Shown one piece after another: positions 15,388 through 60,692 of a stretch of 64,000 bases of DNA (position 1 is the first letter of the stretch; each line of letters starts with the position of its first letter). The stretch lies in assembly GCA_028716705.1 (NCBI GenBank), contig JAQUPI010000002.1, forward strand, positions 14,067-78,066, given 5' to 3'. This stretch comes from Candidatus Omnitrophota bacterium (lineage in GTDB: Bacteria > Omnitrophota > Gorgyraeia > Gygaellales > Profunditerraquicolaceae). The notes under the pieces were generated by a model, which worked only from the letters and a program-made list of their open reading frames with translations, made no database searches and was not told the DNA's origin. Made by a program: the position numbers and the translations under genes.

Positions 15388-15916
15388 TTTGACCCTCTTG
15401 TGACAATGTTTCATCGAGCAATTTACCTTTGTCCGCGGAATTGATCCTCTGCCAGCGCTCAAGGATCAAAAGTTTATAGGCGTAAATAATTAAAAAATCC
15501 AGGTCGAAATAACGGCCGAAGGATAAGCCATCCAGAAAATCCCATCTCTCCAGGTCCAGCGACCTTTCGGCATCAAGAGGGGAAGGGTTCCTCAGCGCGG
15601 CCAAAACCAGATGATAAAGCGCGGGGCCGGCGTAACCGTCCGGCCGCAGATATTTCGCGGCATCTGATTTTTTGCGGGCAGCCCTTACCTTTACTAATTC
15701 ATTTCGCAGCATGATCTCAAAAGCCACGATTTTTTTTATCGTTTCTTGCCGGCCTTCATATTCATATCGTAAAGGAATATTCTCCAAAACCGCGCGATCA
15801 TCCTGCGGTATCGAATCCCTGCATAATAAGAGGAATTTCTCGAAAGAAATGGGCGCGGACATGTTAAAGTGCAGCATCGGTAAGCTTGATATGAGATAAG
15901 GGTATAGGGCGGGCAT
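15374..15916 (-). CDS. DUF2764-like V-ATPase-associated protein (possible C/d-subunit analog)
   Basis: 180 aa ORF sitting between ntpE and ntpA, as in Bacteroidetes/spirochaete-type V-ATPase operons (E-hyp-A-B-D-I-K). Confidence 0.4.
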   Translation of the reverse strand: MPALYPYLISSLPMLHFNMSAPISFEKFLLLCRDSIPQDDRAVLENIPLRYEYEGRQETIKKIVAFEIMLRNELVKVRAARKKSDAAKYLRPDGYAGPALYHLVLAALRNPSPLDAERSLDLERWDFLDGLSFGRYFDLDFLIIYAYKLLILERWQRINSADKGKLLDETLSQEGQNAGK

Positions 15917-33355: not shown

Positions 33356-36108
<2,753 letters not shown>

Positions 36109-36122
36109 CGGTATGCGCTTTA

Positions 36123-37214
36123 TTAATTTAAGCGCATGGGCAGCACGATATAAACATACCCGTTAATGCGGATCACCCCGGGTTTCTCCGCGTCAGTAAG
36201 TTCGAAAGCCACCCTCTCTTCGCACAAATTTTTAAGGACATCCATTAAGTAGCTCGGGTTAAAACCCGCTACGATCTCCTTGCCCTGATACTCAATGGGC
36301 ACTTCCTCCCTCGACTCCCCGACATCCGGCGTACTCTTGGAAACCACCATCTTGTTTTTAAATACCTCCAGTTTTACCGCCTGATAATCGGGGGTAGAAA
36401 GCAAGGCTGCCCTTTTTACCGCTAATAGGAATTGTTCCCTCCCGACACCGATCTTATTTTCCGCCGCGGGCGGGATTACCTGTTGGTAGTCGGGGAACTC
36501 GCCTTCGATCAAACGGGAAATGATTATGACATCGCCCAAGTCAAAAAGCGCCTGGTTATTCCCTAAAAGCATGGAGACCTCGCCCTCCTCCTGTAAGTTA
36601 CGGCTTAACTCCTGGATTGTTTTAAGAGGAACAATGATCTGCAAATCCTTCTCCGTGTTTTTATTTAACTTCCTCTGTATAACAGCCAGCCGCTTGCCGT
36701 CAGTGGCTACCAGAGTAATATTATCCCGGCTGATCTTAAATAATATACCGTTCAGAATATACCTGGTTTCATCAATAGACACCGCAAAAGACGTAAGGGC
36801 AAGCATCTCCTTAAGAACGGCTTGCTCTATCTTTAATACGCCGCCCTCCTTGAATTCGGGTAATTTTGGGAAATCCTCAAAAGGCAGCCCCATTATCTTA
36901 AACTGGCATGATTTTGTCTCAATAATAACCAAGTTGTTCTTCTTGGTGTTAATGTTTAACTTATCATCGGGGAGCTCTTTAATAATATCCCCGAACCTTT
37001 TCGCGGGAATAGTAATCATTCCTGGTTCCTGGATATCCACAGGAATTACACAGCTTATCCCTACATCCAGATCCGTAGCGGTTAACCTTATTTTATCCTT
37101 TTCCGCTTCCACCAATATATTGGATAATATGGGTAAGGCGGACCTGACTGAGATCACATTTTGAACTTTCTGTATTCCGGCGATTAATTTATCCTTGCTA
37201 ATTTCCACTTTCAT
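36123..37214 (-). CDS. dnaN: DNA polymerase III beta sliding clamp
   Basis: 363 aa, three-domain clamp ending ...PMRLN. Confidence 0.9.
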   Translation of the reverse strand: MKVEISKDKLIAGIQKVQNVISVRSALPILSNILVEAEKDKIRLTATDLDVGISCVIPVDIQEPGMITIPAKRFGDIIKELPDDKLNINTKKNNLVIIETKSCQFKIMGLPFEDFPKLPEFKEGGVLKIEQAVLKEMLALTSFAVSIDETRYILNGILFKISRDNITLVATDGKRLAVIQRKLNKNTEKDLQIIVPLKTIQELSRNLQEEGEVSMLLGNNQALFDLGDVIIISRLIEGEFPDYQQVIPPAAENKIGVGREQFLLAVKRAALLSTPDYQAVKLEVFKNKMVVSKSTPDVGESREEVPIEYQGKEIVAGFNPSYLMDVLKNLCEERVAFELTDAEKPGVIRINGYVYIVLPMRLN

Positions 37215-37395
37215 TTGGATAGCCCTCGCGTTAAATAACCCCTTAGTTTAGGTTCTATTATTATTTAATAGTTAAATAAATATAATCTTAATAGTAGTAA
37301 AGAGTTTCATCCTTGTTAAGATCAGGTTAACCCCATATAGAATCTTGGATTATGATAACCGCGCCGCTTTAATAACCTTATGATAACCTGGTAAT
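37215..37395. other. Candidate oriC segment between dnaA and dnaN
   Basis: A roughly 60-bp stretch of more than 85% AT (ttctattattatttaatagttaaataaatataatcttaatagtagtaaag) is followed by four or five direct repeats of (T/G)(G/A)ATAACC and a TTATCCAGG-like box at 37408. Gene strand bias flips nearby. Confidence 0.4.
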
Positions 37396-38736
37396 TTATT
37401 GTTGAATAACCTGGATAATCCTTTCTACCTTGTTTTTTAAAAAACTATCAGTGTTGATGTCCCCTTTGATCTTATTGAACGAATGCAATACGGTAGTGTG
37501 GTCTTTACCCCCAAAATAATTGCCTATTTCAGGAAGCGACAGGTCTGTTAACTCCCTGCTTAAATACATTGCCACTTGCCTCGGGACGACTATGTTCTTA
37601 TTGCGCCGCTTCATTTTTAGCTCTTGTAACGATACGGCAAATTCTTCGGCAACACAACGCTGGATGAAATCGACAGTGATCAACTTCTTAGCCTCTTTTA
37701 ACAGATCCCTTAACACGCCTTTTGCTAATTCCAGGGTAATGGGTTTTTCCTCCAATAGGGCGTAGGCGATGATGCGTATCAGGGCGCCTTCTAATTCCCG
37801 GACGTTGGTTTTGATCAGCTGGGCGATGAAGAAGATAACATCATCGGGAACCGAAATGGGCTCTCTCTCTATTTTCTTCTTTAAAATGGCCACGCGCGTT
37901 TCCAGGTCTGGCGGCTGGATATCCGTGGTCAGCCCCCACCCAAAACGCGAAACCAGCCTGTCCTGCAGGTTGGATATTTCTTTCGGCGGCCGGTCGGAAG
38001 ATATTATGATCTGTTTGTGGGCATCGTATAATGCATTAAAAGTGTGGAAGAATTCTTCCTGGGTGGATTCTTTCCCGGCGATGAAATGTATGTCGTCGAT
38101 GACCAGCATGTCGGCGTTACGGTATTTTTGCCTGAAGGCCGGAGTAGAATGATGTTGTATCGCGTCGATCAATTCATTGGTGAATTTCTCCGAGCTCATG
38201 TAGCACATTTTTAAATTTCCCCCAAGCTTTTCTTTGGTGCGGTGGCATATTGCCTGCATTAAATGCGTTTTGCCCAGGCCGACCCCCCCGTAAATGAATA
38301 GGGGATTATAGGCCTTCGCGGGAGAATCGGCCACGGCCAAAGAATAGGCGTGCGCGTGACGGTTAGACGAGCCGACCACGAAATTCTCGAATGTGTAGCG
38401 CGGGTTAAGGGCGAAGGATTCCCGGAGGTCTTTTGTTTTTCCGGGTGACTGGCGTATCCCGGTTTCAGCGGCCTGGGCCGCGGCTTGCGGATTAACCTCA
38501 AAAGCGACTTGTACTCCTTCCTTCAGGCATGAGGCGGCCTCTTCTTCTATGATCCGCTTATAATGCTGCTCTACCCAGTCCCTAAAAAATTTATCCGGCG
38601 CCTGCAAGGTAAGCCCCTCTTTGTTATCCTCTTGCGGCCTTAATTGAAGGGGATTGATCCAGGTTTCAAAGGCGGATTTGCCCAGCTTGTCCCGTAAATG
38701 CTCTTTTATTTGATCCCAGGCTTTAAACATATTCAC
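37396..38736 (-). CDS. dnaA: Chromosomal replication initiator DnaA
   Basis: 446 aa with an AAA+ domain (GGVGLGKTHL) and a C-terminal DNA-binding domain. Confidence 0.95.
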   Translation of the reverse strand: MNMFKAWDQIKEHLRDKLGKSAFETWINPLQLRPQEDNKEGLTLQAPDKFFRDWVEQHYKRIIEEEAASCLKEGVQVAFEVNPQAAAQAAETGIRQSPGKTKDLRESFALNPRYTFENFVVGSSNRHAHAYSLAVADSPAKAYNPLFIYGGVGLGKTHLMQAICHRTKEKLGGNLKMCYMSSEKFTNELIDAIQHHSTPAFRQKYRNADMLVIDDIHFIAGKESTQEEFFHTFNALYDAHKQIIISSDRPPKEISNLQDRLVSRFGWGLTTDIQPPDLETRVAILKKKIEREPISVPDDVIFFIAQLIKTNVRELEGALIRIIAYALLEEKPITLELAKGVLRDLLKEAKKLITVDFIQRCVAEEFAVSLQELKMKRRNKNIVVPRQVAMYLSRELTDLSLPEIGNYFGGKDHTTVLHSFNKIKGDINTDSFLKNKVERIIQVIQQ

Positions 38737-38868
38737 AGCTTATTAACACCTTGAATAAATCTGTGCAAACATTATAACAAAAACGCCTCTACCACACAAG
38801 AAAAAAGGCAGCAGGTAAAAAGTGCGCCCATTATACAGCATTCCTTATGCCAGTCAATAAAAATATTA

Positions 38869-38948
38869 TTGACCCCCTTTAAAATTATGGTATACTGATG
38901 CAAATCCAACTGGTTATGTGTTGACTTTAAACCCAGGTATGGTATACT
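38869..38948 (+). promoter_or_regulatory. Two tandem near-consensus sigma70 promoters for rpmH
   Basis: P1 is TTGACC-N16-TGgTATACT and P2 is TTGACT-N16-TGgTATACT. ATGGTATACT is directly repeated. The AAGGAGA SD lies 9 nt before the rpmH ATG. Confidence 0.5.
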
Positions 38949-38990
38949 TTTTTCTTTAAAAGAAAGTGACAACAAGGAGAAATAAGGACC

Positions 38991-39128
38991 ATGAAGAAAC
39001 ATCTAAAAACGCCCACCAATATAGTAGGTAAACGCAAGCATGGCTTCCGTCGCAGAATGGCCACAAAAGCCGGAAGAAGGGTTTTAAAGCGCAGGCGCCA
39101 GGCGGGAAGGAAGCGCATCTCTCTCTAA
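38991..39128 (+). CDS. rpmH: 50S ribosomal protein L34
   Basis: 45 aa, [45 protein letters not shown]. Not in the ORF track because it is under 60 aa. Confidence 0.9.
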
Positions 39129-39343
39129 TGTTGGCAAGATCGGCTTGTAAGCTTATAGAAATATACCAAACATATATCCGGATAGCGCTGCCTCACTCAT
39201 GCCGCTTCGCCCCCACCTGTTCAGAATACACAAAAGAGGCTATTTCAAGATACGGTTTCTTCCGGGGGACCTTTAAAGGGGTAAGAAGGCTCTTACGGTG
39301 CCAACCATTTTCGCGGAAATTCGGTTATGATCCTGTAAATTAA
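39128..39343 (+). CDS. yidD: Membrane protein insertion efficiency factor YidD
   Basis: 71 aa with the CRFAPTCSEY motif. Its ATG overlaps the rpmH TAA (TAATG). No rnpA lies between rpmH and yidD. Confidence 0.8.
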   Translation: MLARSACKLIEIYQTYIRIALPHSCRFAPTCSEYTKEAISRYGFFRGTFKGVRRLLRCQPFSRKFGYDPVN

Positions 39344-39345
39344 AT

Positions 39346-40863
39346 ATGGAAACGGAAAAGCGTTTATTTTTAGCCATCGCGTTAGCCTTAGTTGTCTTGT
39401 TGAGCTGGTCAACGTTCGCTTCTAAGCGTTATCCCATTGAAAATAAACAAGTTACGACTAGCACGGCCAGCGTAAAACCATTTTCAAGGGTTCAGCCTTT
39501 ACCCCAAATCCCAGAATCTACCGACGATACCGAAACTAATTTCCCGCATGAAAAGTATGATATTGTTTTCAGTGAATCGCGGGCAGCGGTTAAATCCATA
39601 AATTTTAAAAGTTATCAAAACTACGTCTTTCCTTTGAAGTCCGGTTTTCAATTAAACCAGCCTGGTTTAAATTTCAAGACGAAAGAAATTGATCGAAAAA
39701 ACGCCATATTCGCGCATACAGATGCCGCTAAAGAGATCATCAAGAAATTTGATTTTTCCAAGTCTAATTATACCATAGGGTTAGAGATTACAGTCAAAAA
39801 TTTCTCCACAAACACGCTGAAGATGGCTCTCCCCGTGATCCTGGGAGAATTGAGCTCGGCGGGAGGGCATGAAGAAGCCAGGCTTAGGGACGTAACTTTT
39901 GCCGGCAGAGACAAGATAACGCATTTAAATTTACGCAAAGAAGCGGAGCAGGAGGAGATTAAATTCGTAGCTTTACGAGATAGGTACTTTTGCGCTATCC
40001 TCTCTCCTATTGCATCGACTTACAATGGTTATCTAAGCAAAAAAAGCGCCCAGGATTATGAGATTGGCGTATTAGGACCAGAATTCGAAGTATTGCCCGG
40101 CGAAGAAAAGATTTTTAACTTCGATATATATTTAGGGCCGCAAGAATTACGCCAGATCTCAAACATTAATCCGGATTGGACAGCGGTAATGTATTACGGG
40201 ACCTTTGATTTTATCGCCCACCTGCTCTTACAGTTATTGTATTTTATTTTTGGTTTGCTCAGAAATTGGGGCTTGACCATCGTAGTTATCAGCGTTATAA
40301 TTTATTTTATCCTTTTTCCACTATCTTTAAAACAGATGCATTCCATGAAACAGATGCAGGTTCTGCAGCCGCGTATTGAAGAGCTAAGAAAGGCTTATAA
40401 GAATAATCCCCAGAAGCTTAACGCGGAGATAATGCAATTATACAAGACCTATAAAGTCAACCCCTTTAGCGGCTGCCTGCCTTTAATTTTGCAGATACCC
40501 ATCTTCTTTGCTTTATATCAGGTACTTATCCGTTCAGTAGCCCTCAAGGGGGCGAGTTTCCTTTGGATAAAGGATTTATCCGCTCCTGACCGGTTATTTT
40601 TACTTCCTTTTTCTCTGCCGGTTCTGGGGAATGAGATCAATTTATTGCCTATTTTGATGACCATAGGGATGTTTGTTCAGCAGAAATTTTCCATGGCTAC
40701 TGCAACCTCTGGTTCCGCGGAGCAACAGAAATTGATGTTGATCTTGATGCCTCTCATGTTCGGCTTCATTTTTTATCATATGCCATCGGGTTTAGTTTTA
40801 TATTGGTTTACGAATAGCACGCTTATGCTCGTATATCAGTTGAAAATAAACCGACAAAAATAA
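39346..40863 (+). CDS. yidC: Membrane protein insertase YidC
   Basis: 505 aa with a periplasmic domain and a C-terminal 5-TM Oxa1 core. Confidence 0.9.
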   Translation: METEKRLFLAIALALVVLLSWSTFASKRYPIENKQVTTSTASVKPFSRVQPLPQIPESTDDTETNFPHEKYDIVFSESRAAVKSINFKSYQNYVFPLKSGFQLNQPGLNFKTKEIDRKNAIFAHTDAAKEIIKKFDFSKSNYTIGLEITVKNFSTNTLKMALPVILGELSSAGGHEEARLRDVTFAGRDKITHLNLRKEAEQEEIKFVALRDRYFCAILSPIASTYNGYLSKKSAQDYEIGVLGPEFEVLPGEEKIFNFDIYLGPQELRQISNINPDWTAVMYYGTFDFIAHLLLQLLYFIFGLLRNWGLTIVVISVIIYFILFPLSLKQMHSMKQMQVLQPRIEELRKAYKNNPQKLNAEIMQLYKTYKVNPFSGCLPLILQIPIFFALYQVLIRSVALKGASFLWIKDLSAPDRLFLLPFSLPVLGNEINLLPILMTIGMFVQQKFSMATATSGSAEQQKLMLILMPLMFGFIFYHMPSGLVLYWFTNSTLMLVYQLKINRQK

Positions 40864-40876
40864 ACTGCTCACCATA

Positions 40877-41086
40877 ATGCAAAAATACAATATTGAAATA
40901 GAGGCTAATACAGTCGAGGAAGCGGTAAAGCTGGCTTTAAAAGAGCTGAAGGTTCCCCGCTCGAAAGTTAAGATTGAAGTTCTTTCTGATGGAGAAAAAG
41001 GGCTTTTTGGCATGCCTGGCGCAAAACCAGCAAAGATCAGAGTGAGCGCGATTAAAGAACCTCGTTCCGCGGGGAACAATTCGTAA
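40877..41086 (+). CDS. Jag_N domain protein (KhpB/Jag N-terminal domain only)
   Basis: 69 aa, TVEEAVKLALKELKVPRSKVKIEVLSDGEKGLFGMPG. No KH or R3H domains follow. Confidence 0.5.
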   Translation: MQKYNIEIEANTVEEAVKLALKELKVPRSKVKIEVLSDGEKGLFGMPGAKPAKIRVSAIKEPRSAGNNS

Positions 41087-43242: not shown

Positions 43243-44067
43243 ATGAACAGCATGACCGGTTTTGCCAGTAAGGAATTGGCCGCGAGGCCTTTCGGAAAGA
43301 TTTTCCTGGAAATTCGCAGCACCAACCACAAATTTTTGGAAGTGGTTTTCCATCTGCCCGTCGGCCTTTTGGCTTTAGAGGATAAGATAAAAAAGGAGAT
43401 AGAGGGGAAGTTCAAGAGGGGCAGGATCGTATGCGTGATGAACATACAGGCCAGCCGGTCTAACAAAATCTTCATCGATAAGCCTCTTCTAAGGCATTAT
43501 GTTTCCGCGTTGCGCGCCATAAGCAGGGAAAGCCGGTTAAATGAAGATATAAGCCTGAACACATTGGTTAATTTGCCGGGCGTGTTGTCTCTTGTGGAAG
43601 ACAGGCGCAGGGAGAGCAAGCTTTGGCCTCATCTTAAAGACCTGCTCGACCGTACACTCGCTGACCTTTCGGCTATGCGCCGTAAGGAAGGAGAGGCGCT
43701 ATGCGTTTATTTCAAAAAGGGCGCTAAGGGGCTTACGGAAGACTTGAATAGCGTGAAAGAAAAATTCAAAAAAATGGTCAAGGAGAAGCTGAAGGAGCTT
43801 GCTACTGCGGAAGAACGCTGCAGCTTTCTCAAGGATTCGGATATAACTGAGGAAGTCGAGCGTTTAAGTTTCCACATCAAGAATTTCAAAGACAAGCTCT
43901 CAAAGGCAGGGGCGATAGGGAAGGAGCTGGATTTTATCGCGCAGGAGATGCAGCGCGAGGCAAATACCATGGGCGCTAAATCCGTGGATGTGTCGATATC
44001 CGCCAAGGTCGTACAGATAAAAAGCCAGGTGGAAAAAATCAGGGAGCAATTGCAGAATATAGAGTGA
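43243..44067 (+). CDS. yicC: YicC-family stress-induced protein
   Basis: 274 aa with an SMTGF start and the EIRSTNHKFLE motif. Confidence 0.8.
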   Translation: MNSMTGFASKELAARPFGKIFLEIRSTNHKFLEVVFHLPVGLLALEDKIKKEIEGKFKRGRIVCVMNIQASRSNKIFIDKPLLRHYVSALRAISRESRLNEDISLNTLVNLPGVLSLVEDRRRESKLWPHLKDLLDRTLADLSAMRRKEGEALCVYFKKGAKGLTEDLNSVKEKFKKMVKEKLKELATAEERCSFLKDSDITEEVERLSFHIKNFKDKLSKAGAIGKELDFIAQEMQREANTMGAKSVDVSISAKVVQIKSQVEKIREQLQNIE

Positions 44068-44714
44068 AGCCAAGACACAAGTCACAAGTCACAAGTCACA
44101 AGGCGAATGGGATAATATTCATAATTTGCGGGCCTTCGGGTTCGGGTAAGACGACGCTGGCAAGGAACCTGCTGGCCGATAAAAGCTTGAAAGGCAAATT
44201 AAACCGGCCCATCTCCCTGACCACACGGCCGAAAAGGTCCGGAGAGAAAGATAAAAAAGATTATTTTTTCGTCAGCGAAGAGCGGTTTAATGAGCAGAAA
44301 AAAAGAAAAAAGATCCTCGAGTGGACCAAATACCTCGGCTATTATTACGCCACGCCAAGGGATTTTATCGAGGGGCGGCTGGAAAAAGGAAAGAACATTA
44401 TCCTTTGCCTGGACCTGAAGGGCGCCGCCACAATAAAGCGGCTTTACCCAAAAAATACGGTAATATTTTTTGTTATGCCGCCGTCGATAGATGCGCTTTT
44501 ACACCGGATCACGAACAGGTGCAATAAGACCCGGGAGAAAGAAATAAGACAGCGCCTGGAGCTGGCGCGCAGGGAGCTTAGGGTCTGCCGCAGGTATGAT
44601 TATTGCATAGTGAATAAAGACCTGGAAAAAGCGACGGAAAAGTTAAGGGGTATTATATTAAAAAAGATCGGAGAAAAAGATGCCATACGTAGCGCTGGAA
44701 AAACTGCTGGATAA
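44064..44714 (+). CDS. gmk: Guanylate kinase
   Basis: P-loop CGPSGSGKTT. The GTG start at 44064 is the only in-frame start. The N-terminal extension HKSQVTSHK is encoded by a (CACAAGT)x3 repeat. Confidence 0.85.
   Translation: MKPRHKSQVTSHKANGIIFIICGPSGSGKTTLARNLLADKSLKGKLNRPISLTTRPKRSGEKDKKDYFFVSEERFNEQKKRKKILEWTKYLGYYYATPRDFIEGRLEKGKNIILCLDLKGAATIKRLYPKNTVIFFVMPPSIDALLHRITNRCNKTREKEIRQRLELARRELRVCRRYDYCIVNKDLEKATEKLRGIILKKIGEKDAIRSAGKTAG
44071..44103 (+). repeat. GTCACAA heptamer tandem repeat, locus 1
   Basis: caagacacaagtcacaagtcacaagtcacaagg, immediately after the yicC stop and inside the first codons of gmk. Confidence 0.7.
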
Positions 44715-45438: not shown

Positions 45439-45513
45439 GGCGCGGTAGCCAAGTGGCAAGGCGACTGTCTGCAAAACAGTTATACAGCGGTTCGAATCCG
45501 CTCCGCGCCTCCA
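45439..45513 (+). tRNA. tRNA-Cys (GCA)
   Basis: GGCGCGGTAGCCAAGTGGCAAGGCGACTGTCTGCAAAACAGTTATACAGCGGTTCGAATCCGCTCCGCGCCTCCA. Anticodon loop CTGCAAA. Confidence 0.9.
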
Positions 45514-45520: not shown

Positions 45521-46297
45521 ATGCCGCAAAAAAGAAAAAAATTAAATATTGAGGGAACAAACCTTTGGTATTTGGTGGGGTTGATTACAAGTGACGGAAA
45601 TCTTTCAAAAGACGGAAGGCATGTCGACATAACAGCGAAAGATAGATATTTTTTACGGACCATAACAGCGAAGCTCGGATTGGCGAATAAAATCGGTATA
45701 AAGAATAAGGACACCTACAAAGAGGCGCACAGACTTCAAATCTCGAATAAAAATTTCTACGATTTTCTTTTGTCAATCGGCCTTAGACAAAATAAATCGT
45801 TGATTTTAGGCGCGTTACATGTTCCGAATCGATATTTTATGGATTTTTTAAGAGGGGTAATCGATGGCGACGGATGTATCCGCAACTGGATACATCCAAC
45901 CAATAGAAGGGAACAATGGAGCCTGAGGATATATTCTGGCTCGGAGAAGTTTATCAGCTGGCTAAGTGACGAAATAGCAGGATTATTAGAGGTTTTTGGC
46001 AAGATTTATAACAGCAGAGAAAATTTATGGGTATTAAAGTACGGCAAAATGGCCGCGAGAGAAATAATCAGAAGGTGTTATTATAAAAATTGTTTTGGCT
46101 TAAAAAGAAAGATAAAATTAGCTCGGGATTGCTGCAGATCGTATTCGGGTTGGACTCAAAGCAAAACGGTTGTTGATTGTTATCGCCGGGATGGCGAAAC
46201 TGGCAAACGCACGGGACTTAAAATCCCGCGGCCGCAAGGCCTTGTGGGTTCAATTCCCTCTCCCGGCACTTTTTGGGCTCATAGCTCAGTTGGTTAG
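45521..46297 (+). CDS. LAGLIDADG homing endonuclease (double-motif); 3' end reads through tRNA-Leu
   Basis: Motifs LVGLITSDGNL and LRGVIDGDGCI. The ORF starts 8 nt after tRNA-Cys. Its last ~110 nt overlap tRNA-Leu on the same strand, so the true C-terminus is uncertain. Confidence 0.6.
   Translation: MPQKRKKLNIEGTNLWYLVGLITSDGNLSKDGRHVDITAKDRYFLRTITAKLGLANKIGIKNKDTYKEAHRLQISNKNFYDFLLSIGLRQNKSLILGALHVPNRYFMDFLRGVIDGDGCIRNWIHPTNRREQWSLRIYSGSEKFISWLSDEIAGLLEVFGKIYNSRENLWVLKYGKMAAREIIRRCYYKNCFGLKRKIKLARDCCRSYSGWTQSKTVVDCYRRDGETGKRTGLKIPRPQGLVGSIPSPGTFWAHSSVG
46185..46268 (+). tRNA. tRNA-Leu (TAA), type II variable arm
   Basis: GCCGGGATGGCGAAACTGGCAAACGCACGGGACTTAAAATCCCGCGGCCGCAAGGCCTTGTGGGTTCAATTCCCTCTCCCGGCA. 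The anticodon loop is intact, so there is no intron. Confidence 0.9.
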
Positions 46298-46348
46298 AGC
46301 GTTGCGTTGACATCGCAAAGGTCTGAGGTCCGAATCCTCATGGGCCCA
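46275..46348 (+). tRNA. tRNA-Val (GAC)
   Basis: GGGCTCATAGCTCAGTTGGTTAGAGCGTTGCGTTGACATCGCAAAGGTCTGAGGTCCGAATCCTCATGGGCCCA. Anticodon loop TTGACAT. Confidence 0.85.
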
Positions 46349-50651: not shown

Positions 50652-52157
50652 ATGATCTTAAGACCCCGCCTGGAAGACGTTAAAGCAATCGGTTATTACT
50701 TAGGAAGGATCATCCTGGCTTTAGGCCTTGCCATGCTGGTGCCCATTATTATCGGGATGTCGGCAGGAGAAATAAATCCGATATTTGACTTTCTGATCGG
50801 AGCGGAGATCTCCCTGGTCTTTGGTTTGATCTTGATCAAGCTCTGTTTTGTAGAAAAAGACCTAAGCTGGATGCAGGGTATGATCGTGGTCAGCCTGTCA
50901 TGGCTGGTCGCGATGCTATTGGGCGCTATACCGTTATATCTAAGCGGCCACTGGAAGTCTTATCTGGACGCCTGCTTCGATTCCATGTCGGGATTTGCCA
51001 CTACCGGGTTAGTTTTGGCCCAAGATCTGGACCACCTTTCCTATGCGCATAATTTCTGGCGCCATCTGATCATGTTTCTGGGAGGCCAGGGTATCGTGAT
51101 CGTTGCTATATCTTTTTTTGTCAGGGGTGCCTCCGGCGCGTTCAGAATGTATGTAGGAGAAGCGCGGGATGAAAGGATATTGCCAAACGTGATCAGTACC
51201 TCCCGTTTTATATGGCTGGTGAGCGCTGTCTATTTTGTTTTAGGCACTCTTTCTTTGAGCATTGTGGCCATGCTCAACGGGATCAAGCCTTTTAACGCCC
51301 TTTTTCACGGCGCCTGCATTTTTATGACGGCATTTGATACGGGGGGATTTTCTCCGCAATCTCAGAGCATCCTTTATTATCACAGCCTGCCTTTTGAAAT
51401 TGTAACGATCGTAATAATGATTTTAGGCGCCCTAAACTTTAGGCTGCATTATCACCTTTGGGCCGGCAACCGCCGTGAAATTTTCAAGAATATTGAGACA
51501 AGGACATTCTTTGCCACGGTCCTGATCATTTTCGGCGTGGTGGCATTCGGACTAATGCAGGTCGGCAGCTACCCTAAAGCGGCACTCTTATTCCGCAAAG
51601 GGTTTTATCAACTTATTTCAGGCCACTCCGGTACAGGGTTTATGACTATTTACGCCGCCCAGTTCGCGAATGAATGGAGCCAGATCGCGCTGGTTGGGAT
51701 GATTTGCGCCATGGCTTTAGGCGGGGCAGTATGTTCAACCACCGGGGCTATTAAGATGCTGCGCATAGGTATCGTATTTAAAGCGCTAAAAGAGGATTTG
51801 AAAAGGATAATTATGCCGGAAAGGGCCGTAATAATCGAGAAATTTCACCACATAAAAGAGACGTTTGTGGAAGATAAAATCGCCAGGTCTGCCTTGTTGA
51901 TAACACTGGCTTACTTAGGGCTATATTTTCTTGGAACGATCGTCGGTATGCTATTCGGCCATTCTTTCGCGAACGCGTTATTTGAATCAACTTCAGCGGC
52001 TGCCAATGTCGGTCTGTCCTGCGGGATAACCGGCGTAAATATGCCAGCGGCTTTAAAATTTACCTATATATTTCAAATGTGGGCCGGCCGTCTCGAATTT
52101 ATGTCGGTTTTCGTTTTGATCGGATTCATTGTCGCGGCGATAAAAGGCAAAAAATGA
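50652..52157 (+). CDS. trkH: Trk/Ktr potassium uptake membrane subunit
   Basis: 501 aa polytopic protein with repeated selectivity-filter-like G-rich loops. Confidence 0.85.
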   Translation: MILRPRLEDVKAIGYYLGRIILALGLAMLVPIIIGMSAGEINPIFDFLIGAEISLVFGLILIKLCFVEKDLSWMQGMIVVSLSWLVAMLLGAIPLYLSGHWKSYLDACFDSMSGFATTGLVLAQDLDHLSYAHNFWRHLIMFLGGQGIVIVAISFFVRGASGAFRMYVGEARDERILPNVISTSRFIWLVSAVYFVLGTLSLSIVAMLNGIKPFNALFHGACIFMTAFDTGGFSPQSQSILYYHSLPFEIVTIVIMILGALNFRLHYHLWAGNRREIFKNIETRTFFATVLIIFGVVAFGLMQVGSYPKAALLFRKGFYQLISGHSGTGFMTIYAAQFANEWSQIALVGMICAMALGGAVCSTTGAIKMLRIGIVFKALKEDLKRIIMPERAVIIEKFHHIKETFVEDKIARSALLITLAYLGLYFLGTIVGMLFGHSFANALFESTSAAANVGLSCGITGVNMPAALKFTYIFQMWAGRLEFMSVFVLIGFIVAAIKGKK

Positions 52158-52675
52158 TGATGAGGTCACAAGTCACATGTCATACGTCACAAGTCAAAGT
52201 TAAGGGGCTTGTTTTATTCTTAACTTGTGTCTTGTGTCTTGCGACCGGTGACTTATTCGCCCAATCCATCTCCAGCTTAGAACTGATCAACAACGCCAAG
52301 CTTTATGAAGGCAAAGTGGTAACCTTTGAAGGTGAGGCGATCGGAGACGTTATGGCGCGCGGCGAATACGCCTGGCTGAATGTGAACGACGGCCAGAACG
52401 CGATAGGGATCTGGATGGGGAAGGAGTTAGCCGGGGAAGTTTCTTTTACCGGCAGTTATAAATCAAGAGGCGACTGGCTGGAAATAACCGGTATCTTCAA
52501 TCGCGCCTGCCTTGAGCACGGAGGAGACCTGGATATTCACGCTCAAGCGATACGAAAAGTGAGGCCCGGTAGAGATGTTGTAGAAAAATTAAATACCGGT
52601 AAAAGGAATATGGTTTTTATTTTGTTAGGAGTATTGTGCGCGGTATGGATATTGAAGCGATTAAAACTCAAATAG
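52154..52675 (+). CDS. Hypothetical secreted / membrane-anchored protein (possible BOF/YgiW-like OB fold)
   Basis: Start set at the ATGATGATG triplet. Signal peptide LVLFLTCVLCLATGDLFAQ. C-terminal TM MVFILLGVLCAVWIL. The N-terminus RSQVTCHTSQVK is encoded by the heptamer repeat. Confidence 0.4.
   Translation: MMMRSQVTCHTSQVKVKGLVLFLTCVLCLATGDLFAQSISSLELINNAKLYEGKVVTFEGEAIGDVMARGEYAWLNVNDGQNAIGIWMGKELAGEVSFTGSYKSRGDWLEITGIFNRACLEHGGDLDIHAQAIRKVRPGRDVVEKLNTGKRNMVFILLGVLCAVWILKRLKLK
52165..52254 (+). repeat. GTCACAA-family repeat, locus 2, with an inverted partner arm
   Basis: gtcacaagtcacatgtcatacgtcacaagtcaaag ... cttgtgtcttgtgtcttg. The arms are about 35 nt apart, immediately after the trkH stop. 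Confidence 0.65.
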
Positions 52676-53661: not shown

Positions 53662-55688
53662 TGAAAGTCACGTATAACTGGTTAAAGGATTTTGTGGATA
53701 TTAAAGTCGCGCCTGGAGCTCTCGCGGACAAGCTTACCATGGCCGGGCTGGAGGTAACTTCCGTCGAAGAACGCGGAGGAGATTTTGTCTTTGAGATCGA
53801 AATCACCTCTAATAGGCCTGACTGGCTGAGCGTGGCCGGCGTGGCCAGAGAAGTAGCGGCAATTACGGGTAAGAAATTAATAGAAAAAAGTCACAAAGTC
53901 ACAAAATCACAAAATCACAAAGCGGAAGTTAAAATCGAAATAGAGAATAAAAAGGACTGCCCGCTGTATACAGCTAAAATCATAAAGAACGTCAAGGTGG
54001 GAGTATCCCCGGAGTGGTTAAAGAAGAGGCTAGAGCTTGTCGGATGCCGCAGCGTGAATAATGTCGTGGATATCACTAATTATATCTTATTTGAAACCGG
54101 AGAGCCTTTGCATGCTTTTGACCTGGACAAGCTGCAAGGTAACGCCGTAATCGTGCGCAGGGCAAAACACGGAGAAAAAATAACTACTATCGACGCTCAA
54201 GAGAGGCCGCTTAATACGGGTATTCTGATCATAGCTGATGAGCGAAAGCCCATAGCTATCGCCGGAGTAATGGGAGGCAGGGAGACAGAGGTAACCGAAA
54301 CCACAAGGAATATTCTCTTAGAGGCGGCTGTTTTTAATCCGGCTGTTGTGCGCAGGGGCCGCAGGAGCGCCGGGATTCAAAGCGAGTCCTCTTACAGATT
54401 TGAAAGAGGGGTGGACCTTGAGAAAGTCACCTGCGCTTCGTCAGAAGCGGCGGGTTTAATCCTGGGTCTGGCCGGAGGCGATCTTACCGGGGCAAGAACT
54501 GCGGGCTTAGCCAAATCAAAGAAGAGGACCGTGAAGTTAGATTTATTCTCGGTAAATAAGATCTTGGGCGCAAATATCAACGCCGCCAGGATGAAGTCGA
54601 TTTTAAAGAGCCTGGGTTTTAAGACATCCGGGGCAAGAAATGTATTTACGGTAAAGGTCCCGCATTTTCGTTTTGATGTCAATTCCCCGGTTGACCTGGT
54701 TGAAGAAATAGCCAGGGTGCATGGTTATGAAAATATCGCCATGACCCTTCCTCGCGTAAAGCCAAAACCGCGCCTTGGCGAACAGCCCGATAAGGTTGCC
54801 CTGATCAAGGATATCTTGACAGGTTTGGGCCTGAACGAAGTAATTACTTACAGCCTGATGGACAAAAGCTTGCTGCGGGAATTCGGCATGTATGCTGGCG
54901 CGGAAGCTTTGGAAGTCCTTAACCCCCTAAGCGCTGAACAGGAGATCTTAAGGCCGGCCCTTATTCCGGGGGTCTCGGCATGTGTCGCCCGCAACCTCAA
55001 CCAGAAGCAGGATTATGTGAATATCTTTGAAGTGGCCAAGGCGTTTGGGCTATCCGGGGGAGTTCCTTCCGAGGAGCTGCGCTTATGCATCGCCCTATGC
55101 GGGACAAAATCCATGCTCTTAGATCGCGGGGTGGTTAAAGACACCGCCGGATTTCTGCAATTGAAGGGGATAATTGAGACGGTCTTTGAGCGGCTTGGAT
55201 TAAAGGCGCATGATTTCAGGCCGTCCGAAAGGCCTTCCGTAATAGACATACTTTTGGCCCAAGAAAAAATAGGCATGATGCAGAAACTGGATCAACCGGC
55301 GCTGGCCAGGATGGATATCAAGAATAAAGACTTGTTTGTTGCTGAGCTCTCCCTGGAAAGGCTCCTGTTTTATTATAAACCCGAGAAAAAATTTTCGCGC
55401 CTTCCGGCGTATCCGGGCATATCCCGGGATATCAGCCTTGTTATAAAAGAAGAAATAACCGCAGGCCAAATATTGGAGACTGTCAAAGAAGAAGGCAGTG
55501 TCCTTCTGAGGCAGGCCAGGATATCGGATTGTTATCAAGGCAAACAGATCCCCGCGGGTTTCAAGGGATTGACAATTTCCTGTCTTTATCGTTCTGACGA
55601 GCGGACATTAACAGAGGAAGAGATCGAGCCTTTGCATTCAGCGGTTTTTAAGCGCTTGTACGAGAAGTTCGGGGCCCAGATCAGATAA
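53661..55688 (+). CDS. pheT: Phenylalanyl-tRNA synthetase beta subunit (short form without the N-terminal tRNA-binding OB domain)
   Basis: 675 aa containing B3/4, B5 and FDX-ACB domains. Carries an in-frame repeat-encoded SHKVTKSQNHK segment. Confidence 0.9.
   Translation: MKVTYNWLKDFVDIKVAPGALADKLTMAGLEVTSVEERGGDFVFEIEITSNRPDWLSVAGVAREVAAITGKKLIEKSHKVTKSQNHKAEVKIEIENKKDCPLYTAKIIKNVKVGVSPEWLKKRLELVGCRSVNNVVDITNYILFETGEPLHAFDLDKLQGNAVIVRRAKHGEKITTIDAQERPLNTGILIIADERKPIAIAGVMGGRETEVTETTRNILLEAAVFNPAVVRRGRRSAGIQSESSYRFERGVDLEKVTCASSEAAGLILGLAGGDLTGARTAGLAKSKKRTVKLDLFSVNKILGANINAARMKSILKSLGFKTSGARNVFTVKVPHFRFDVNSPVDLVEEIARVHGYENIAMTLPRVKPKPRLGEQPDKVALIKDILTGLGLNEVITYSLMDKSLLREFGMYAGAEALEVLNPLSAEQEILRPALIPGVSACVARNLNQKQDYVNIFEVAKAFGLSGGVPSEELRLCIALCGTKSMLLDRGVVKDTAGFLQLKGIIETVFERLGLKAHDFRPSERPSVIDILLAQEKIGMMQKLDQPALARMDIKNKDLFVAELSLERLLFYYKPEKKFSRLPAYPGISRDISLVIKEEITAGQILETVKEEGSVLLRQARISDCYQGKQIPAGFKGLTISCLYRSDERTLTEEEIEPLHSAVFKRLYEKFGAQIR
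53889..53921 (+). repeat. GTCACAAA-family repeat, locus 3 (inside pheT)
   Basis: agtcacaaagtcacaaaatcacaaaatcacaaag, in frame within pheT. Confidence 0.65.
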
Positions 55689-59081: not shown

Positions 59082-60641
59082 TTGTCTATGTTAAACATAG
59101 TTATATTTGCCGCTACTGCCTTGATCTCGCTATATGCGGGCTATGTTATAAGGCGGTATATAGCGGAAAAAAAGATTCAGGACGCTGAAGCAAAAGCCGG
59201 GGTGATCCTGGATCAGGCCAAAAGAGAGGCGCAGGATAAGCGCAGGGAAGTGGAACTGGAGGCTAAAGACCTTCTCTACAGGATGCGCCAGGATTTTGAA
59301 AGGGAGACAAAGGATAGGCGCCAGGAAATACAAAATTCGGAGAAAAGGCTCTCCCAGAAGGAAGAAAACATAGAGCGCAGGCTCGAGCTTTTAGAAAGAA
59401 AAGAGAAGGAGCTGGAGCAGAGGCAGGACAATTTAAGGAAGCAGGAAGAGGCCATAAAGGCCAAGGAGACGCAACTTCATTCTCTGATCGCCGAAGAAAA
59501 AGAAAGGCTGCAGAAAATATCATCCCTTTCCGCTGAAGAAGCAAAGCAGATTTTGCTCAGCCGCCTTAATGAAGAATTGAACGCGGAAAAAGGAGTATTT
59601 ATAAAAAGGCAGGAAGAAGAATTGAAAAGCCTCGCGGATAAAAAAGCCAGGGAGATCATCAGCCTGGCCATCCAAAGGTGCGCTGCGGAGCACGCCGTTG
59701 AATCTACGGTAAGCGTGGTTGCTTTGCCTAATGACGACATGAAAGGACGCGTGATCGGCAGAGAGGGAAGGAATATCCGGGCCCTAGAAATGGCGACAGG
59801 GGTCGACGTGATCATAGACGATACCCCGGAAGCGGTGACATTGTCCGGGTTTGATACCGTCCGCAGGGAAATAGCCCGTTTGAGCTTGGAGAAACTTATC
59901 AGCGATGGGCGGATCCATCCCGGCAGGATCGAGGAGATAGTAGAGAAGACAAAAAAGGAGATGGACGAAAAGATACGCGAAGAAGGGGAGCGGGCGGCTT
60001 TTGAGGCAGGAGTCGACAGCTTGCATCCGGAGCTTATAAAACTGATCGGCCGGCTTAGATACCGCACCAGTTTTGGCCAGAACGCGCTGCAGCATTCCAA
60101 AGAAGTCGCTTTTCTCCTTGGGGTAATGGCTTCCGAAGTGGGTTTGGATTATAAATTGGCGCGCAGGATAGGGCTTTTGCATGATATCGGGAAAGCGGTG
60201 GACCATCAGATAGAAGGCACACATGCCAAGATAGGGGCGGACCTGGCGAGAAAATATAATGAAAGCCAGGAAGTAATAGGGAGCATCGAGGCCCATCATG
60301 AAGAGGCGGAGATCAAAAGCTTTTACGCGGTCCTGGCGGTGGCGGCAGACGCGATAAGCGCGGCACGGCCGGGCGCGCGCCGGGAAACGCTGGAAACTTA
60401 TATCAAGCGGCTGGACAAGCTGGAATCCATCGCTAACCTTTTTAAGGGCGTGGAAAAATCTTTCGCTATACAGGCAGGCCGGGAAATACGGGTGATCGTG
60501 CAGCCGGAAAAAATTTCAGACAGCGACGCCGTCAATCTGGCCAGGGATATCCGTAAAAAGATAGAAGAGGGTATGGAATACCCCGGGCAGATCAAGGTAA
60601 CGGTAATTCGTGAAACCCGGGCCATTGAATACGCGAAATAG
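59082..60641 (+). CDS. rny: Ribonuclease Y
   Basis: 519 aa with an N-terminal TM, a coiled coil, a KH domain ([11 protein letters not shown]) and an HD domain (LHDIGK). Confidence 0.9.
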
Positions 60642-60668
60642 TCACATGTCGCAAGCCACAAGTCAATG
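60640..60668 (+). repeat. GTCACA-family repeat, locus 4 (rny/ymdB intergenic)
   Basis: tagtcacatgtcgcaagccacaagtcaatg begins in the rny stop codon. It is followed by a GCCaCAA/TTTGcGGC hairpin and TTTG. Confidence 0.55.
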
Positions 60669-60692
60669 TTTGCGGCTTTGAATGAATTATAA

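What the first reader, a model, noticed from the sequence alone, without database searches (positions are those of the whole stretch)
44071..44103. Dispersed GTCACAA heptamer tandem-repeat family at five loci, mostly exactly at gene boundaries
Near-identical tandem runs (AGTCACA x2-4) occur at five loci. Four are on the plus strand: 44071 (yicC stop / gmk start), 52165 (trkH stop / next ORF start), 53889 (inside pheT) and 60640 (beginning in the rny stop codon). A fifth partial copy, GTCACAAGAGGGTCAAAATG, lies on the minus strand at 15387-15404, ending in the ntpA start codon. Three copies are translated in-frame, giving HKSQVTSHK in gmk, RSQVTCHTSQVK in the secreted ORF and SHKVTKSQNHK in pheT. 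No stop codons arise, which is reminiscent of in-frame insertions of Rickettsia palindromic elements. The motif may be a protein-binding direct repeat, an RNA element or a miniature mobile repeat.
Basis: seen in the sequence. Interest (0 to 1): 0.6.

Follow-up and report, generated by a model that had tools for sequence, protein, structure and literature searches.

The report
Dispersed heptamer microsatellites at gene junctions
Four short runs of the 7-base unit GTCACAA sit at gene junctions and inside three genes of an uncultured Omnitrophota bacterium; they are real, they belong to the known but poorly understood class of bacterial heptanucleotide microsatellites, and they are translated as floppy protein tails and linkers rather than being mobile elements.

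Summary
(GTCACAA)n-type arrays lie on the sense strand at 44071, 52165, 53887 (period 8) and 60640. The fifth, at 15387, is at chance level. The window is from a Candidatus Omnitrophota MAG and spans the dnaA/yidC origin region.

- Three arrays are translated in frame: the Gmk N-terminal tail, the n-region of a signal peptide, and the PheT linker. All three segments are tolerant or predicted disordered.
- The gmk array equals exactly three units (21 nt) added to the array-less ortholog.
- No flanks, terminal repeats or target duplications are shared, so this is not an RPE- or MITE-like insertion.
- Three near-identical genomes show no copy-number change.
- Relatives carry many period-7 arrays with other units at the same sites. 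More than half of these are paired with an inverted array, forming "ladder" hairpins.

Best reading: heptanucleotide microsatellites that grew in place by slippage and template switching and were kept only where harmless. This makes them a new member of a known kind (STRR, TAACTGA, Geobacter GGGACCG×4).

Two things remain unexplained: why one unit recurs at several loci, and why relatives keep the hairpin architecture at fixed sites while its sequence turns over.

The parts
44071..44102 (+). Array A1: CAAGACA + 3x CAAGTCA + CAAG (4.6 heptamers). It lies 4 nt after the yicC stop (TGA 44065-44067) and is translated as gmk codons 3-13 (PRHKSQVTSHK).
   Evidence: The GTGA stop/start overlap is conserved in L149/L150/L151, and the array equals +21 nt relative to array-less L150. 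The N-terminal tail is predicted disordered: residues 1-3 and 5-9 have pLDDT<50 (block 1-10 mean 46), and the first secondary-structure element is a strand at 18-22. It is identical in L001, L125 and L152.
52165..52200 (+). Array A2, 5' arm: degenerate GTCACAA x5.3. It lies 8 nt after the trkH stop and is translated as the positively charged n-region (RSQVTCHTSQVKVK) of the signal peptide of ORF 52154-52675.
   Evidence: The start at the ATGA overlap is conserved in relatives.
52224..52254 (+). Inverse arm of A2. It reads CTTGTGT CTTGTGT CTTGCGA CCGGTGAC on the + strand, i.e. (GACACAA)n on the minus strand. It pairs with A2 in a ~90-nt imperfect hairpin. It encodes the hydrophobic core LTCVLCLATG. 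Its units deviate from TTGTGAC exactly where an in-frame TGA would arise.
   Evidence: 52224-52241, 100% matches. MFE -33.6 kcal/mol, z -3.5, 0 of 200 shuffles as stable; inverted partner with 1 mismatch in 14. TTGTGAC arrays have TGA in all frames.
53887..53922 (+). Array A3: AAAGTCAC x4.5 (period 8, i.e. GTCACAA plus one A). It lies in frame inside pheT (codons 76-88, KSHKVTKSQNHK), in the linker between the N-terminal B1 region and the B3_4 domain. It is a solo arm with no inverse partner.
   Evidence: B3_4 starts at aa 100; no tRNA_bind domain; residues 75-87 are coil with pLDDT<50. MFE 0.0. One A/G difference from L125 with the same length.
60640..60680 (+). Array A4: degenerate AGTCACA TGTCGCA AGCCACA AGTCAAT, starting in the rny TAG stop codon. 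It is followed by a short inverse segment, TTTGCGGCTTTG. It is non-coding and ends 12 nt before the ymdB ATG (60693).
   Evidence: The fold is weak and not better than shuffles on the sense strand (-12.3 kcal/mol, z 0.0). L121 has a strong heptamer hairpin at the same junction.

Best explanation
The arrays are heptanucleotide microsatellites (long simple-sequence repeats). They are local representatives of a repeat class that pervades this Omnitrophota clade and occurs in many other phyla.

Inferred mechanism:
1. A 7-nt unit is duplicated and expanded in place by replication slippage. Slippage in these genomes strongly favours a 7-nt step.
2. In many cases an inverted copy arises next to the array by template switching, giving a 'ladder' hairpin whose arms are each about four heptamers.
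3. Slippage keeps each array internally homogeneous.
4. Purifying selection removes arrays everywhere except at permissive places: spacers between co-transcribed genes, N-terminal tails, signal peptides and disordered inter-domain linkers. It also removes every orientation or phase that creates a stop codon or frameshift.

This explains several features of the window:
- All arrays are in the GTCACAA (stop-free) orientation.
- The gmk array is exactly 3 units (21 nt).
- The inverse arm inside ORF 52154 has mutated away its TGA codons.

In this window the arrays are passively translated into Lys/Ser/Gln/His/Thr/Val-rich floppy segments (Gmk tail, signal-peptide n-region, PheT linker), or lie in the rny-ymdB spacer. 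They are not needed for operon function.

Shown: the arrays, their non-randomness, in-frame translation, in-place origin, absence of mobile-element hallmarks, stability between close strains, and clade-wide occupancy of the same sites by other units.

Inferred: slippage and template switching as the generating process, and neutrality.

Not explained: why the same unit recurs at four non-homologous loci within 17 kb.
For: Period 7 is special:
- Non-redundant TRF arrays in 65.7 kb of three syntenic relatives: 17 of period 7 plus 4 of period 14 and 1 of period 21, against 0-4 for any other period.
- Among exact arrays, period 7 predominates at 3.5 copies or more: 9 arrays, against 1 of period 8 and none of periods 5, 6 or 9-12.
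- Period 7 arrays occur even inside coding DNA, where 7 is out of frame. This points to a mutational bias, not selection for peptide repeats.

In-place origin:
- The gmk junction ...CAGAATATAGA-GTGA is conserved.
- Array-less L150 reads GTGAGAAAGCAGAGTAAAAAGCAAGGG.
- The window and L149 carry +21 nt = 3 units at that spot.
- No shared flanks.

Permissive sites only:
- AF2 gives low confidence for the N-terminal tail that holds the Gmk array (residues 1-3 and 5-9 pLDDT<50, block 1-10 mean 46; no secondary structure before strand 18-22) and pLDDT<50 coil for PheT 75-87.
- In relatives, arrays fall in spacers (16), in the first 45 codons or fewer (12), or in linkers and loops (13, a few of them non-heptamer).

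Orientation follows stop codons:
- GTCACAA is stop-free in all 3 frames and TTGTGAC has TGA in all 3.
- Across 127 arrays from many phyla, 42 lie inside a sense ORF and 0 inside an antisense ORF.

Dispensable:
- The window has 7-30-nt junctions (thrS-infC-rpmI-rplT), and an array-free GH39 signal peptide, where relatives carry arrays or hairpins.

No RNA-specific signature:
- Hairpins are not consistently more stable on the sense transcript.
- No Rfam hit or terminator at the arrays.

Literature:
- Heptamers are the most over-represented long SSR class, and polymerase slippage has been proposed (Mrazek 2007, as summarised in PMC4679880 and PMC4692102).
- Same-unit dispersed heptamer families are known (PMC4679880, PMC2700814).
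Against: - Four arrays sharing one unit family is not expected from independent slippage. Units within 1 mismatch of GTCACAA are 22 of 1170 classes, yet 4 of 4 arrays here and 5 of 29 in relatives are of this type. Stop-freeness does not explain this, because 1608 of 2340 units are stop-free.
- The pheT linker in 7 of 7 relatives with DNA keeps the same architecture: two inverted arrays of about 4.4 units, 69-81 nt in six of the seven (150 nt in L155), z -4 to -5.4. The sequence and the peptide turn over completely. That looks like a conserved structure.
- Whole hairpin+SD modules are copied between neighbouring junctions.
- Array length clusters near 4.4 units.
- Slippage itself was not observed: copy numbers are identical in three genomes of 99.5-100% identity.
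Confidence: 0.58

Rival explanations
1. Functional cistron-junction elements acting on the mRNA. Ladder hairpins placed at or just after the stop/start overlap would make the downstream cistron depend on translation of the upstream one (translational coupling), or would set local mRNA processing and stability. Solo A/C-rich arrays (ACA and ACAA motifs once per unit) would act as unstructured, CA-rich translation enhancers just downstream of weak, SD-less starts.
For: - Three of four arrays begin -1 to +8 nt from the upstream stop (P about 4e-6).
- The 52164-52254 hairpin starts 10 nt after the ATG of a gene whose start overlaps the trkH stop.
- In L151, L154 and L156 the corresponding hairpin includes the start region.
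- Relatives place hairpins in the infC-rpmI-rplT junctions and copy hairpin+SD modules between junctions.
- Site occupancy and hairpin geometry are conserved while the sequence changes.
- ACA motifs and CA repeats enhance bacterial translation, also downstream of the start codon (PMC3879156).
- The gmk and pheT arrays are essentially structure-free.
Against: - The same class of array sits in a PheS catalytic-core loop and in the PheT linker, far from any start.
- The window lacks arrays at junctions where relatives have them, and the GTGA coupling at gmk is conserved with or without an array.
- Sense-strand folding is not favoured over antisense. In L121 and L156 the antisense fold is far more stable.
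- Hairpins and unstructured arrays would have opposite effects on initiation, so no single RNA role covers all four loci.
Confidence: 0.2
2. Arrayed binding sites for a trans-acting factor that reads 7-nt steps. One candidate is a cold-shock-domain or S1-type OB-fold protein binding one heptamer each on single-stranded RNA or DNA. Another is a DNA-binding regulator. The factor's specificity would explain why one unit is shared by several loci.
For: - The same unit occurs at four non-homologous loci, and it is over-represented among arrays of relatives (5 of 29 against about 2% expected).
- Individual genomes elsewhere carry many (GTCACAA)3 loci, e.g. 10 loci (L033, L040, L049, L055, L063, L078, L103, L112 and others) in one Vicinamibacterales MAG and 8 in one Acidobacteria MAG.
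- CspB binds heptamer repeats one protein per heptamer, as reviewed in PMC4679880.
- Arrays of about 4 units also recur in Geobacter (PMC2700814).
Against: - Relatives use many unrelated units within the same 20 kb, which would need many factors.
- A 7-bp period puts successive sites on different faces of duplex DNA.
- No candidate gene was identified in the window.
- In viral contigs (GTCACAA)3 is no commoner than composition-matched control heptamers: 4 against 17 and 2.
Confidence: 0.08
3. Miniature mobile or copy-pasted palindromic elements (RPE-, REP/REPIN- or MITE-like) that insert at junctions and in frame within genes.
For: - In-frame presence inside gmk, pheT and a secreted ORF.
- Presence or absence differs between lineages.
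- One array pair forms a hairpin.
- Near-identical hairpin modules occur at neighbouring junctions in relatives, at 93%, 89% and 78% identity.
Against: - No shared flanks, terminal inverted repeats or target duplications among the four loci.
- Copy number and unit purity differ at each locus.
- The gmk array is exactly three units grown out of a similar ancestral sequence.
- Units at one orthologous site form a gradual drift series: GTCACAA, GCTACAA/GCTGCAA, GCTGCAC.
- No transposase or RAYT-like gene was noted near the arrays (one search covers only flanking genes).
Confidence: 0.05
4. Contingency loci. Slippage by +/-1 unit shifts the frame and switches genes on and off, as with repeat tracts in signal-peptide coding regions of pathogen surface proteins.
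For: - Arrays lie in the first codons of a secreted/membrane ORF here, and of a GH39-like secreted protein in relatives with up to 8.9 units.
- A unit length of 7 is not a multiple of 3.
Against: - Two of the arrays are in essential housekeeping genes (gmk, pheT), where a frameshift would be lethal.
- Copy numbers are identical in L001 (100%), L152 (99.99%) and L125 (99.5% identity).
- The arrays are short (3-5 units) and imperfect.
Confidence: 0.04

Closest known systems
Heptanucleotide long simple-sequence repeats of prokaryotes (Mrazek, Guo & Shah 2007, as summarised in PMC4679880 and PMC4692102), including cyanobacterial STRR heptamers
   Same: - Tandem 7-nt units, a few copies each.
- Period 7 far over-represented relative to other periods.
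- Mostly between genes.
- Phylogenetically scattered.
- Slippage origin has been proposed.
   Different: - Here three of four arrays are translated, two of them inside essential genes.
- The unit GTCACAA and the phylum (Omnitrophota) do not appear in the searchable literature.
TAACTGA direct repeats of marine Beggiatoaceae, cyanobacteria and Bacteroidetes (MacGregor 2015, PMC4679880)
   Same: - One heptamer unit dispersed over many loci, 2-6 copies per set.
- Oriented toward the downstream start codon, often abutting or overlapping the upstream stop.
- Occasional copies inside ORFs at protein termini.
- No predicted RNA structure for solo arrays.
- Function unknown.
   Different: - A different unit.
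- TAACTGA has stops in all forward frames and so is almost always untranslated. GTCACAA is stop-free and is read through.
- Inverted pairs were rare there (1 of 170) but are common in this clade (19 of 33).
Geobacter metallireducens elements of four tandem GGGACCG heptamers (49 copies, between and within genes; PMC2700814)
   Same: - About four heptamers per element.
- One unit at many loci.
- Both intergenic and intragenic positions.
   Different: - GC-rich unit.
- Annotated there as putative regulatory RNA elements.
- No hairpin pairing or in-frame analysis was reported.
GGGAATC (Xanthomonas) and GGGGAYT (Nostoc) heptamer repeats (PMC4692102)
   Same: - Dispersed heptamer arrays between the same genes in related species.
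- Extensive length and sequence variation between relatives.
- Some occur as inverted pairs.
   Different: - Those are G-rich and were studied as G-quadruplex formers. GTCACAA cannot form G4.
REP/BIME elements of enterobacteria and Rickettsia palindromic elements (own knowledge of these families)
   Same: - Hairpin-forming repeats at cistron junctions (REP).
- In-frame occupancy of tolerant protein segments (RPE).
- Lineage-specific sequences at equivalent positions.
   Different: - REP and RPE are copies of a defined consensus with fixed ends, and REP is mobilised by RAYT transposases.
- The present arrays share only the 7-nt unit, differ in length, and grew in place.
CTCTT pentamer tracts in the signal-peptide coding region of Neisseria opa genes (own knowledge)
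   Same: - A non-triplet SSR is translated as part of a signal peptide.
   Different: - opa tracts are long, perfect and hypervariable between sibling cells.
- The arrays here are short, imperfect and invariant between strains.

Membership tests
Dispersed heptanucleotide long SSR family (STRR / TAACTGA / GGGACCG type) | Head-to-tail tandem copies of a 7-nt unit, two or more copies | tested here: met
   TRF gives period 7 at 44071 (4.6 copies), 52165 (5.3) and 52224 (2.6). 53887 is a period-8 derivative. 60640 is a degenerate in-phase run.
Dispersed heptanucleotide long SSR family (STRR / TAACTGA / GGGACCG type) | The same unit at several unlinked loci of one genome, beyond chance | tested here: met
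   Four loci within 17 kb. 8 hits against 0.13 expected. Only the 64-kb window could be tested, not the whole genome.
Dispersed heptanucleotide long SSR family (STRR / TAACTGA / GGGACCG type) | Period 7 over-represented relative to other periods in the lineage | tested here: met
   relatives have 17 arrays of period 7 against 0-4 for other periods. Among exact arrays of 3.5 copies or more, 9 are period 7, 1 is period 8 and none are of periods 5, 6 or 9-12.
Dispersed heptanucleotide long SSR family (STRR / TAACTGA / GGGACCG type) | Located mainly between genes or at protein termini | tested here: met
TAACTGA repeat family (MacGregor 2015) | Unit sequence TAACTGA | tested here: not met
   The unit is GTCACAA. 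No rotation or complement matches it.
Phase-variable contingency SSR | Copy number differs between closely related genomes | tested here: not met
   Identical array lengths in L001, L125 (99.5% identity over 12.6 kb) and L152 (99.99%). Only one further metagenome contig was found.
Phase-variable contingency SSR | Resides in dispensable surface or variable genes | tested here: not met
   Two arrays are in gmk and pheT. One is in a secreted ORF.
Rickettsia palindromic element / MITE | Copies share a full-length consensus with defined ends, terminal inverted repeats or target duplications | tested here: not met
   No shared 7-mers of note in 60-nt flanks. Lengths are 29-36 nt and differ.
Rickettsia palindromic element / MITE | In-frame insertion in ORFs without stops | tested here: met
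   However, this is explained by stop-free unit frames and steps of 3 units.
REP/BIME/REPIN | Imperfect palindrome at extragenic sites with a family consensus and an associated RAYT transposase | tested here: inconclusive
   One of four loci is a significant hairpin. There is no family consensus beyond the unit. RAYT genes were not searched genome-wide, and none is among the flanking genes scanned.
Intrinsic transcription terminator | GC-rich stem followed by a U-tract | tested here: not met
   No terminator-like site overlaps any array.
Known structured RNA family (Rfam 15) | Covariance-model match at gathering score | tested here: not met
   Only seven tRNAs are found in the window.
CA-rich / ACA translational enhancer | ACA or ACAA motifs near or just downstream of the initiation codon | tested here: met
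   Each GTCACAA unit contains ACAA. A1 and A2 start at codons 3-4. The motif definition is from PMC3879156.
CA-rich / ACA translational enhancer | Removal lowers translation | not testable with these tools
   Needs reporter assays.

The most novel reading that the evidence does not exclude
The four arrays would be the eroded edge of an undescribed class of self-renewing 'heptamer-ladder hairpins' in Omnitrophota, and perhaps in Acidobacteriota and others.

Features of this class:
- Each element is two inverted arrays of about 4.4 heptamers, typically 70-80 nt in total.
- They hold fixed positions (cistron junctions, signal-peptide segments, the PheT linker, a PheS loop) across lineages that share only about 60% protein identity.
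- Their unit sequence drifts while the two arms co-vary.
- Whole hairpin+RBS modules are copied between neighbouring junctions.

This would imply one of two things: a structure-specific function (for example enforced translational coupling, or a DNA-level role), or a dedicated maintenance and propagation mechanism. It would also be a route by which non-coding repeats are recruited as signal peptides: the A-rich arm gives the charged n-region, and its T-rich complement gives the hydrophobic core.
Probability: 0.25. Interest if true: 0.7.

Novelty: new member of a known kind. Interest (0 to 1): 0.42.

Why it matters
- It adds a phylum (Omnitrophota) and a unit (GTCACAA) to the small set of described dispersed heptamer families, whose origin and function have been open since 1990-2007.
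- It shows unusually clearly, with orthologs, that such arrays grow in place in three-unit steps inside essential genes.
- It shows that the arrays are filtered by stop codons and reading frame.
- It shows that they can be translated into signal-peptide and linker segments.
- If the clade-wide ladder hairpins turn out to be maintained structures, they would be a tractable case for asking how same-unit repeats spread, and why seven bases is the preferred step.
- Practically, these arrays mislead start-codon calling. The same ORF is annotated as 173 aa in one near-identical MAG and 147 aa in another.

Tried and rejected
1. ATG 44107 as the gmk start, which would make the array intergenic. It is out of frame and the GTGA overlap is conserved.
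2. The fifth locus at 15387. It is not tandem and is at chance level.
3. Horizontal spread of a special unit. (GTCACAA)3 occurs in at least 119 loci from many phyla. However, composition-matched control heptamers are equally or more common in viral contigs: 4 against 17 and 2. Hit loci also hold many unrelated heptamer arrays.
4. G·U asymmetry test for RNA-level selection of hairpins. It gave no consistent sense preference. I also realised that conditioning on a perfect A/C-rich arm, together with stop-codon avoidance, biases this test.
5. Copy-number polymorphism. None was seen in three near-identical genomes. The metagenome scan with the junction sequence returned only the already known contig.
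6. My first guess that TCDL in PheT homologs was the exact inverse of the GTCACAA arm. It is a diverged inverse (GACCTGC) in which TGA has become CGA.
7. Rfam, terminator/promoter and DnaA-box scans. Nothing was found at the arrays.
8. Literature searches for the unit and for heptamers in Omnitrophota found nothing.
Full report
**What is there**

The window carries four sense-strand arrays built on the unit GTCACAA.
- A1, 44071-44102: 4.6 copies, 96% matches.
- A2, 52165-52200: 5.3 degenerate copies.
- A3, 53887-53922: period 8, unit AAAGTCAC, 4.5 copies.
- A4, 60640-60668: four in-phase units with 0-2 mismatches each.

A short inverse array, CTTGTGT x2.6, lies at 52224-52241. The 14-mer dimer with up to 2 mismatches occurs 8 times against 0.13 expected, and exact GTCACAA occurs 12 times against 3.0 expected. 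Single units outside the arrays number 5 against 3 expected, so I drop that locus.

**Context**

Pfam confirms yicC, gmk, trkH, pheS, pheT, rny and ymdB. The best homologs and the exact-sequence look-up place the window in a Candidatus Omnitrophota MAG.

Genes left of about 38.7 kb are on the minus strand (dnaA, dnaN, gyrB) and genes to the right are on the plus strand (yidC, parAB, ndk, yicC, gmk and onward). GC skew changes sign there, so the window spans the replication origin. All arrays lie 5-22 kb to the right of it, on the coding (leading) strand.

**Are the arrays translated?**

Yes, for three of them.
- gmk cannot start at ATG 44107, which is out of frame. It starts at GTG 44064, overlapping the yicC TGA. 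This GTGA overlap and its upstream sequence are conserved in three relatives.
- The ORF after trkH starts at the ATGA overlap, as it does in every relative.
- A3 is at codons 76-88 of pheT.

The encoded segments are predicted disordered or are disposable. The Gmk N-terminal tail has residues 1-3 and 5-9 at pLDDT<50, and its first structural element is a strand at 18-22. PheT 75-87 is pLDDT<50 coil between the N-terminal region and the B3_4 domain. A2 forms the n-region of a signal peptide.

**In-place growth, not insertion**

Only P0122 among 120 Omnitrophota Gmk homologs shares the array peptide; most of the rest begin M/V-RKQSKKQ-GLIF or similar. At the DNA level, array-less L150 reads GTGAGAAAGCAGAGTAAAAAGCAAGGG. 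The window and L149 (69% protein identity) have exactly 21 more nucleotides, which is three units or seven codons, at that spot. L151 has a split version.

The four arrays share no flanks, terminal repeats or duplications. GTCACAA arrays are stop-free in all three frames, while the complement has TGA in all three. The inverse arm inside ORF 52154 deviates from TTGTGAC exactly where TGA would arise in frame (TTGTGTC, TTGCGAC). Frame and stop-codon filtering therefore explain the orientation and the three-unit step.

**Stability**

Three independent assemblies of near-identical genomes have identical array lengths: L001 (100%), L152 (99.99%) and L125 (99.5% over 12.6 kb). The only differences are one A/G substitution in A3 and one just after the inverse arm. 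A metagenome scan with the junction sequence found only the known contig. There is no sign of phase variation.

**The clade**

Synteny from gmk to the GH39-like gene is conserved in L121, L122, L123 and L151. These relatives are full of period-7 arrays. In 65.7 kb there are 17 of period 7, plus arrays of period 14 and 21. Among exact arrays of 3.5 copies or more, nine are period 7, one is period 8 and none belong to periods 5, 6 or 9-12.

The arrays use many different units and occupy the same kinds of site as in the window:
- cistron spacers (thrS-infC-rpmI-rplT, rny-ymdB);
- the first codons of the small secreted ORF and of the GH39-like protein;
- the PheT linker;
- a loop in the PheS catalytic core.

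The window lacks most of these and has 7-30-nt junctions instead, so the arrays are dispensable.

Nineteen of 33 arrays have an inverted partner within 90 nt (control 2.3%). This gives "ladder" hairpins whose arms are each about 4.4 units.

At the PheT linker, all seven relatives with DNA have such a hairpin. It measures 69-81 nt in six of them and 150 nt in L155, with z of -4 to -5.4. The unit pairs differ but form a drift series (GTCACAA, GCTACAA/GCTGCAA, GCTGCAC), and the peptides are unrelated. The window keeps only a solo arm there.

Hairpin+SD modules are duplicated at neighbouring junctions in relatives, at 93%, 89% and 78% identity.

Hairpins are not consistently more stable on the sense transcript. 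No Rfam family or terminator coincides with the arrays.

**Beyond the clade**

(GTCACAA)3 occurs in at least 119 loci of the species-representative genome set. These include Acidobacteriota, Bacteroidota, Cyanobacteriota, Fibrobacter, Dialister, Gammaproteobacteria, ten Omnitrophota loci and one archaeon, often with several loci per genome.

Across the 127 arrays found in these loci:
- 42 lie within 40 nt or less after a sense stop, against 20 after an antisense stop (P=0.007).
- 42 lie inside a sense ORF, against 0 inside an antisense ORF.
- 24 have the order GTCACAA...TTGTGAC, against 1 in the reverse order.

These loci also hold many unrelated heptamer arrays. In viral contigs, composition-matched control heptamers are as common or commoner. 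I therefore read the cross-phylum recurrence as background from a very common repeat class, not as evidence of a special or transferred unit. The decisive control on cellular genomes could not be run.

**Comparison with the literature**

Heptamers are the most over-represented long SSR class in many bacteria, and polymerase slippage has been proposed as the cause (Mrazek 2007, as summarised in PMC4679880 and PMC4692102). Same-unit dispersed families are described for:
- Calothrix (STRR);
- Beggiatoaceae (TAACTGA; 169 sets of 2-6 copies, mostly pointing at start codons; PMC4679880);
- Xanthomonas and Nostoc (PMC4692102);
- Geobacter metallireducens (49 elements of four GGGACCG units, between and within genes; PMC2700814).

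None of these has an established function or dispersal mechanism. No paper in the library contains the GTCACAA dimer in a bacterial context, or heptamer repeats in Omnitrophota.

**Verdict**

The finding is a new member of this known kind. The most likely mechanism is in-place slippage with a 7-nt step, plus template switching for the inverse arms, followed by retention only at permissive, frame- and stop-compatible sites. In this window the arrays are translated passengers.

Two observations are not covered by that account and keep a more interesting reading open. The same unit recurs at four non-homologous loci here, and in 5 of 29 arrays in relatives, against about 2% expected. The ladder-hairpin architecture is also conserved at fixed sites while its sequence turns over.

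Noticed in passing
window 36000-40900 (dnaN 36123-37214 -, dnaA 37396-38736 -, yidC 39346-40863 +): The window spans the chromosomal replication origin region. Gene orientation flips at 38.7-39.3 kb and GC skew changes sign between 36 and 40 kb. No E. coli-type DnaA box (up to 1 mismatch) lies in the 609-bp dnaA-yidC spacer.
   Followed up: partly
window 53661-55688; relatives L121, L122, L123, L151, L154, L155, L156 (pheT codons ~73-100): PheT of this whole clade lacks the B2/tRNA-binding domain. In its place is a ~26-aa hypervariable linker. In 7 of 7 relatives, the DNA coding for this linker is a hairpin of two inverted heptamer arrays, with lineage-specific units and co-varying arms. The window has only a solo arm.
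   Followed up: yes
L121 9395-9475, L122 9353-9433, L151 19380-19455 (pheS): PheS of three relatives has a 14-21-aa insertion encoded by heptamer arrays (TAGGTCA... / ACCCAAC...). It lies between DTFYLK and LLLRSHTSP of the catalytic core. It is absent from the window and from L123.
   Followed up: partly
L122 4395-4500 vs 4692-4797; L121 5340-5445 vs 6082-6185; L151 11430-11540 vs 13995-14105: Whole repeat-hairpin modules, including the Shine-Dalgarno and the bases up to the next start codon, occur twice at neighbouring cistron junctions (93%, 89% and 78% identity). For example, they sit on both sides of rpmI. This suggests local copying of junction modules.
   Followed up: partly
window 52154-52260; L121 8465-8540 and 18287-18430; L123 8531-8600 and 20952-21080; L151 18395-18540; L154 748-890; L156 847-975: Signal peptides of a small secreted/membrane ORF and of a GH39-like protein are largely encoded by heptamer arrays. 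An A-rich arm gives the Lys/Ser/Gln-rich n-region. Its T-rich inverse arm gives the hydrophobic core.
   Followed up: partly
window 52154-52675: The same ORF is annotated with different starts in two 99.99%-identical MAGs: 173 aa from the ATGA overlap, against 147 aa from an internal TTG. The repeat and hairpin confuse start-site calling. It is named 'DNA-binding protein' by its source, although it has a signal peptide and a C-terminal hydrophobic tail.
   Followed up: partly
Genome-contig loci L005, L011, L018, L037, L100, L105, L109 and others (Acidobacteriota/Vicinamibacterales): Very stable hairpins (-40 to -95 kcal/mol) are made of (GTCACAA)n followed by (TTGTGAC)n directly after stop codons. 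There are several per genome, and they sit next to arrays of variant units (GTCAGAA, GGTCAAA). The order GTCACAA...TTGTGAC outnumbers the reverse order 24 to 1.
   Followed up: partly
window 45439-45510, 46185-46348: Three tRNA genes lie between the flavoprotein gene and thrS. The mechanical ORF 45521-46297 overlaps two of them. Relatives have a weak LAGLIDADG-like ORF at this position.
   Followed up: no
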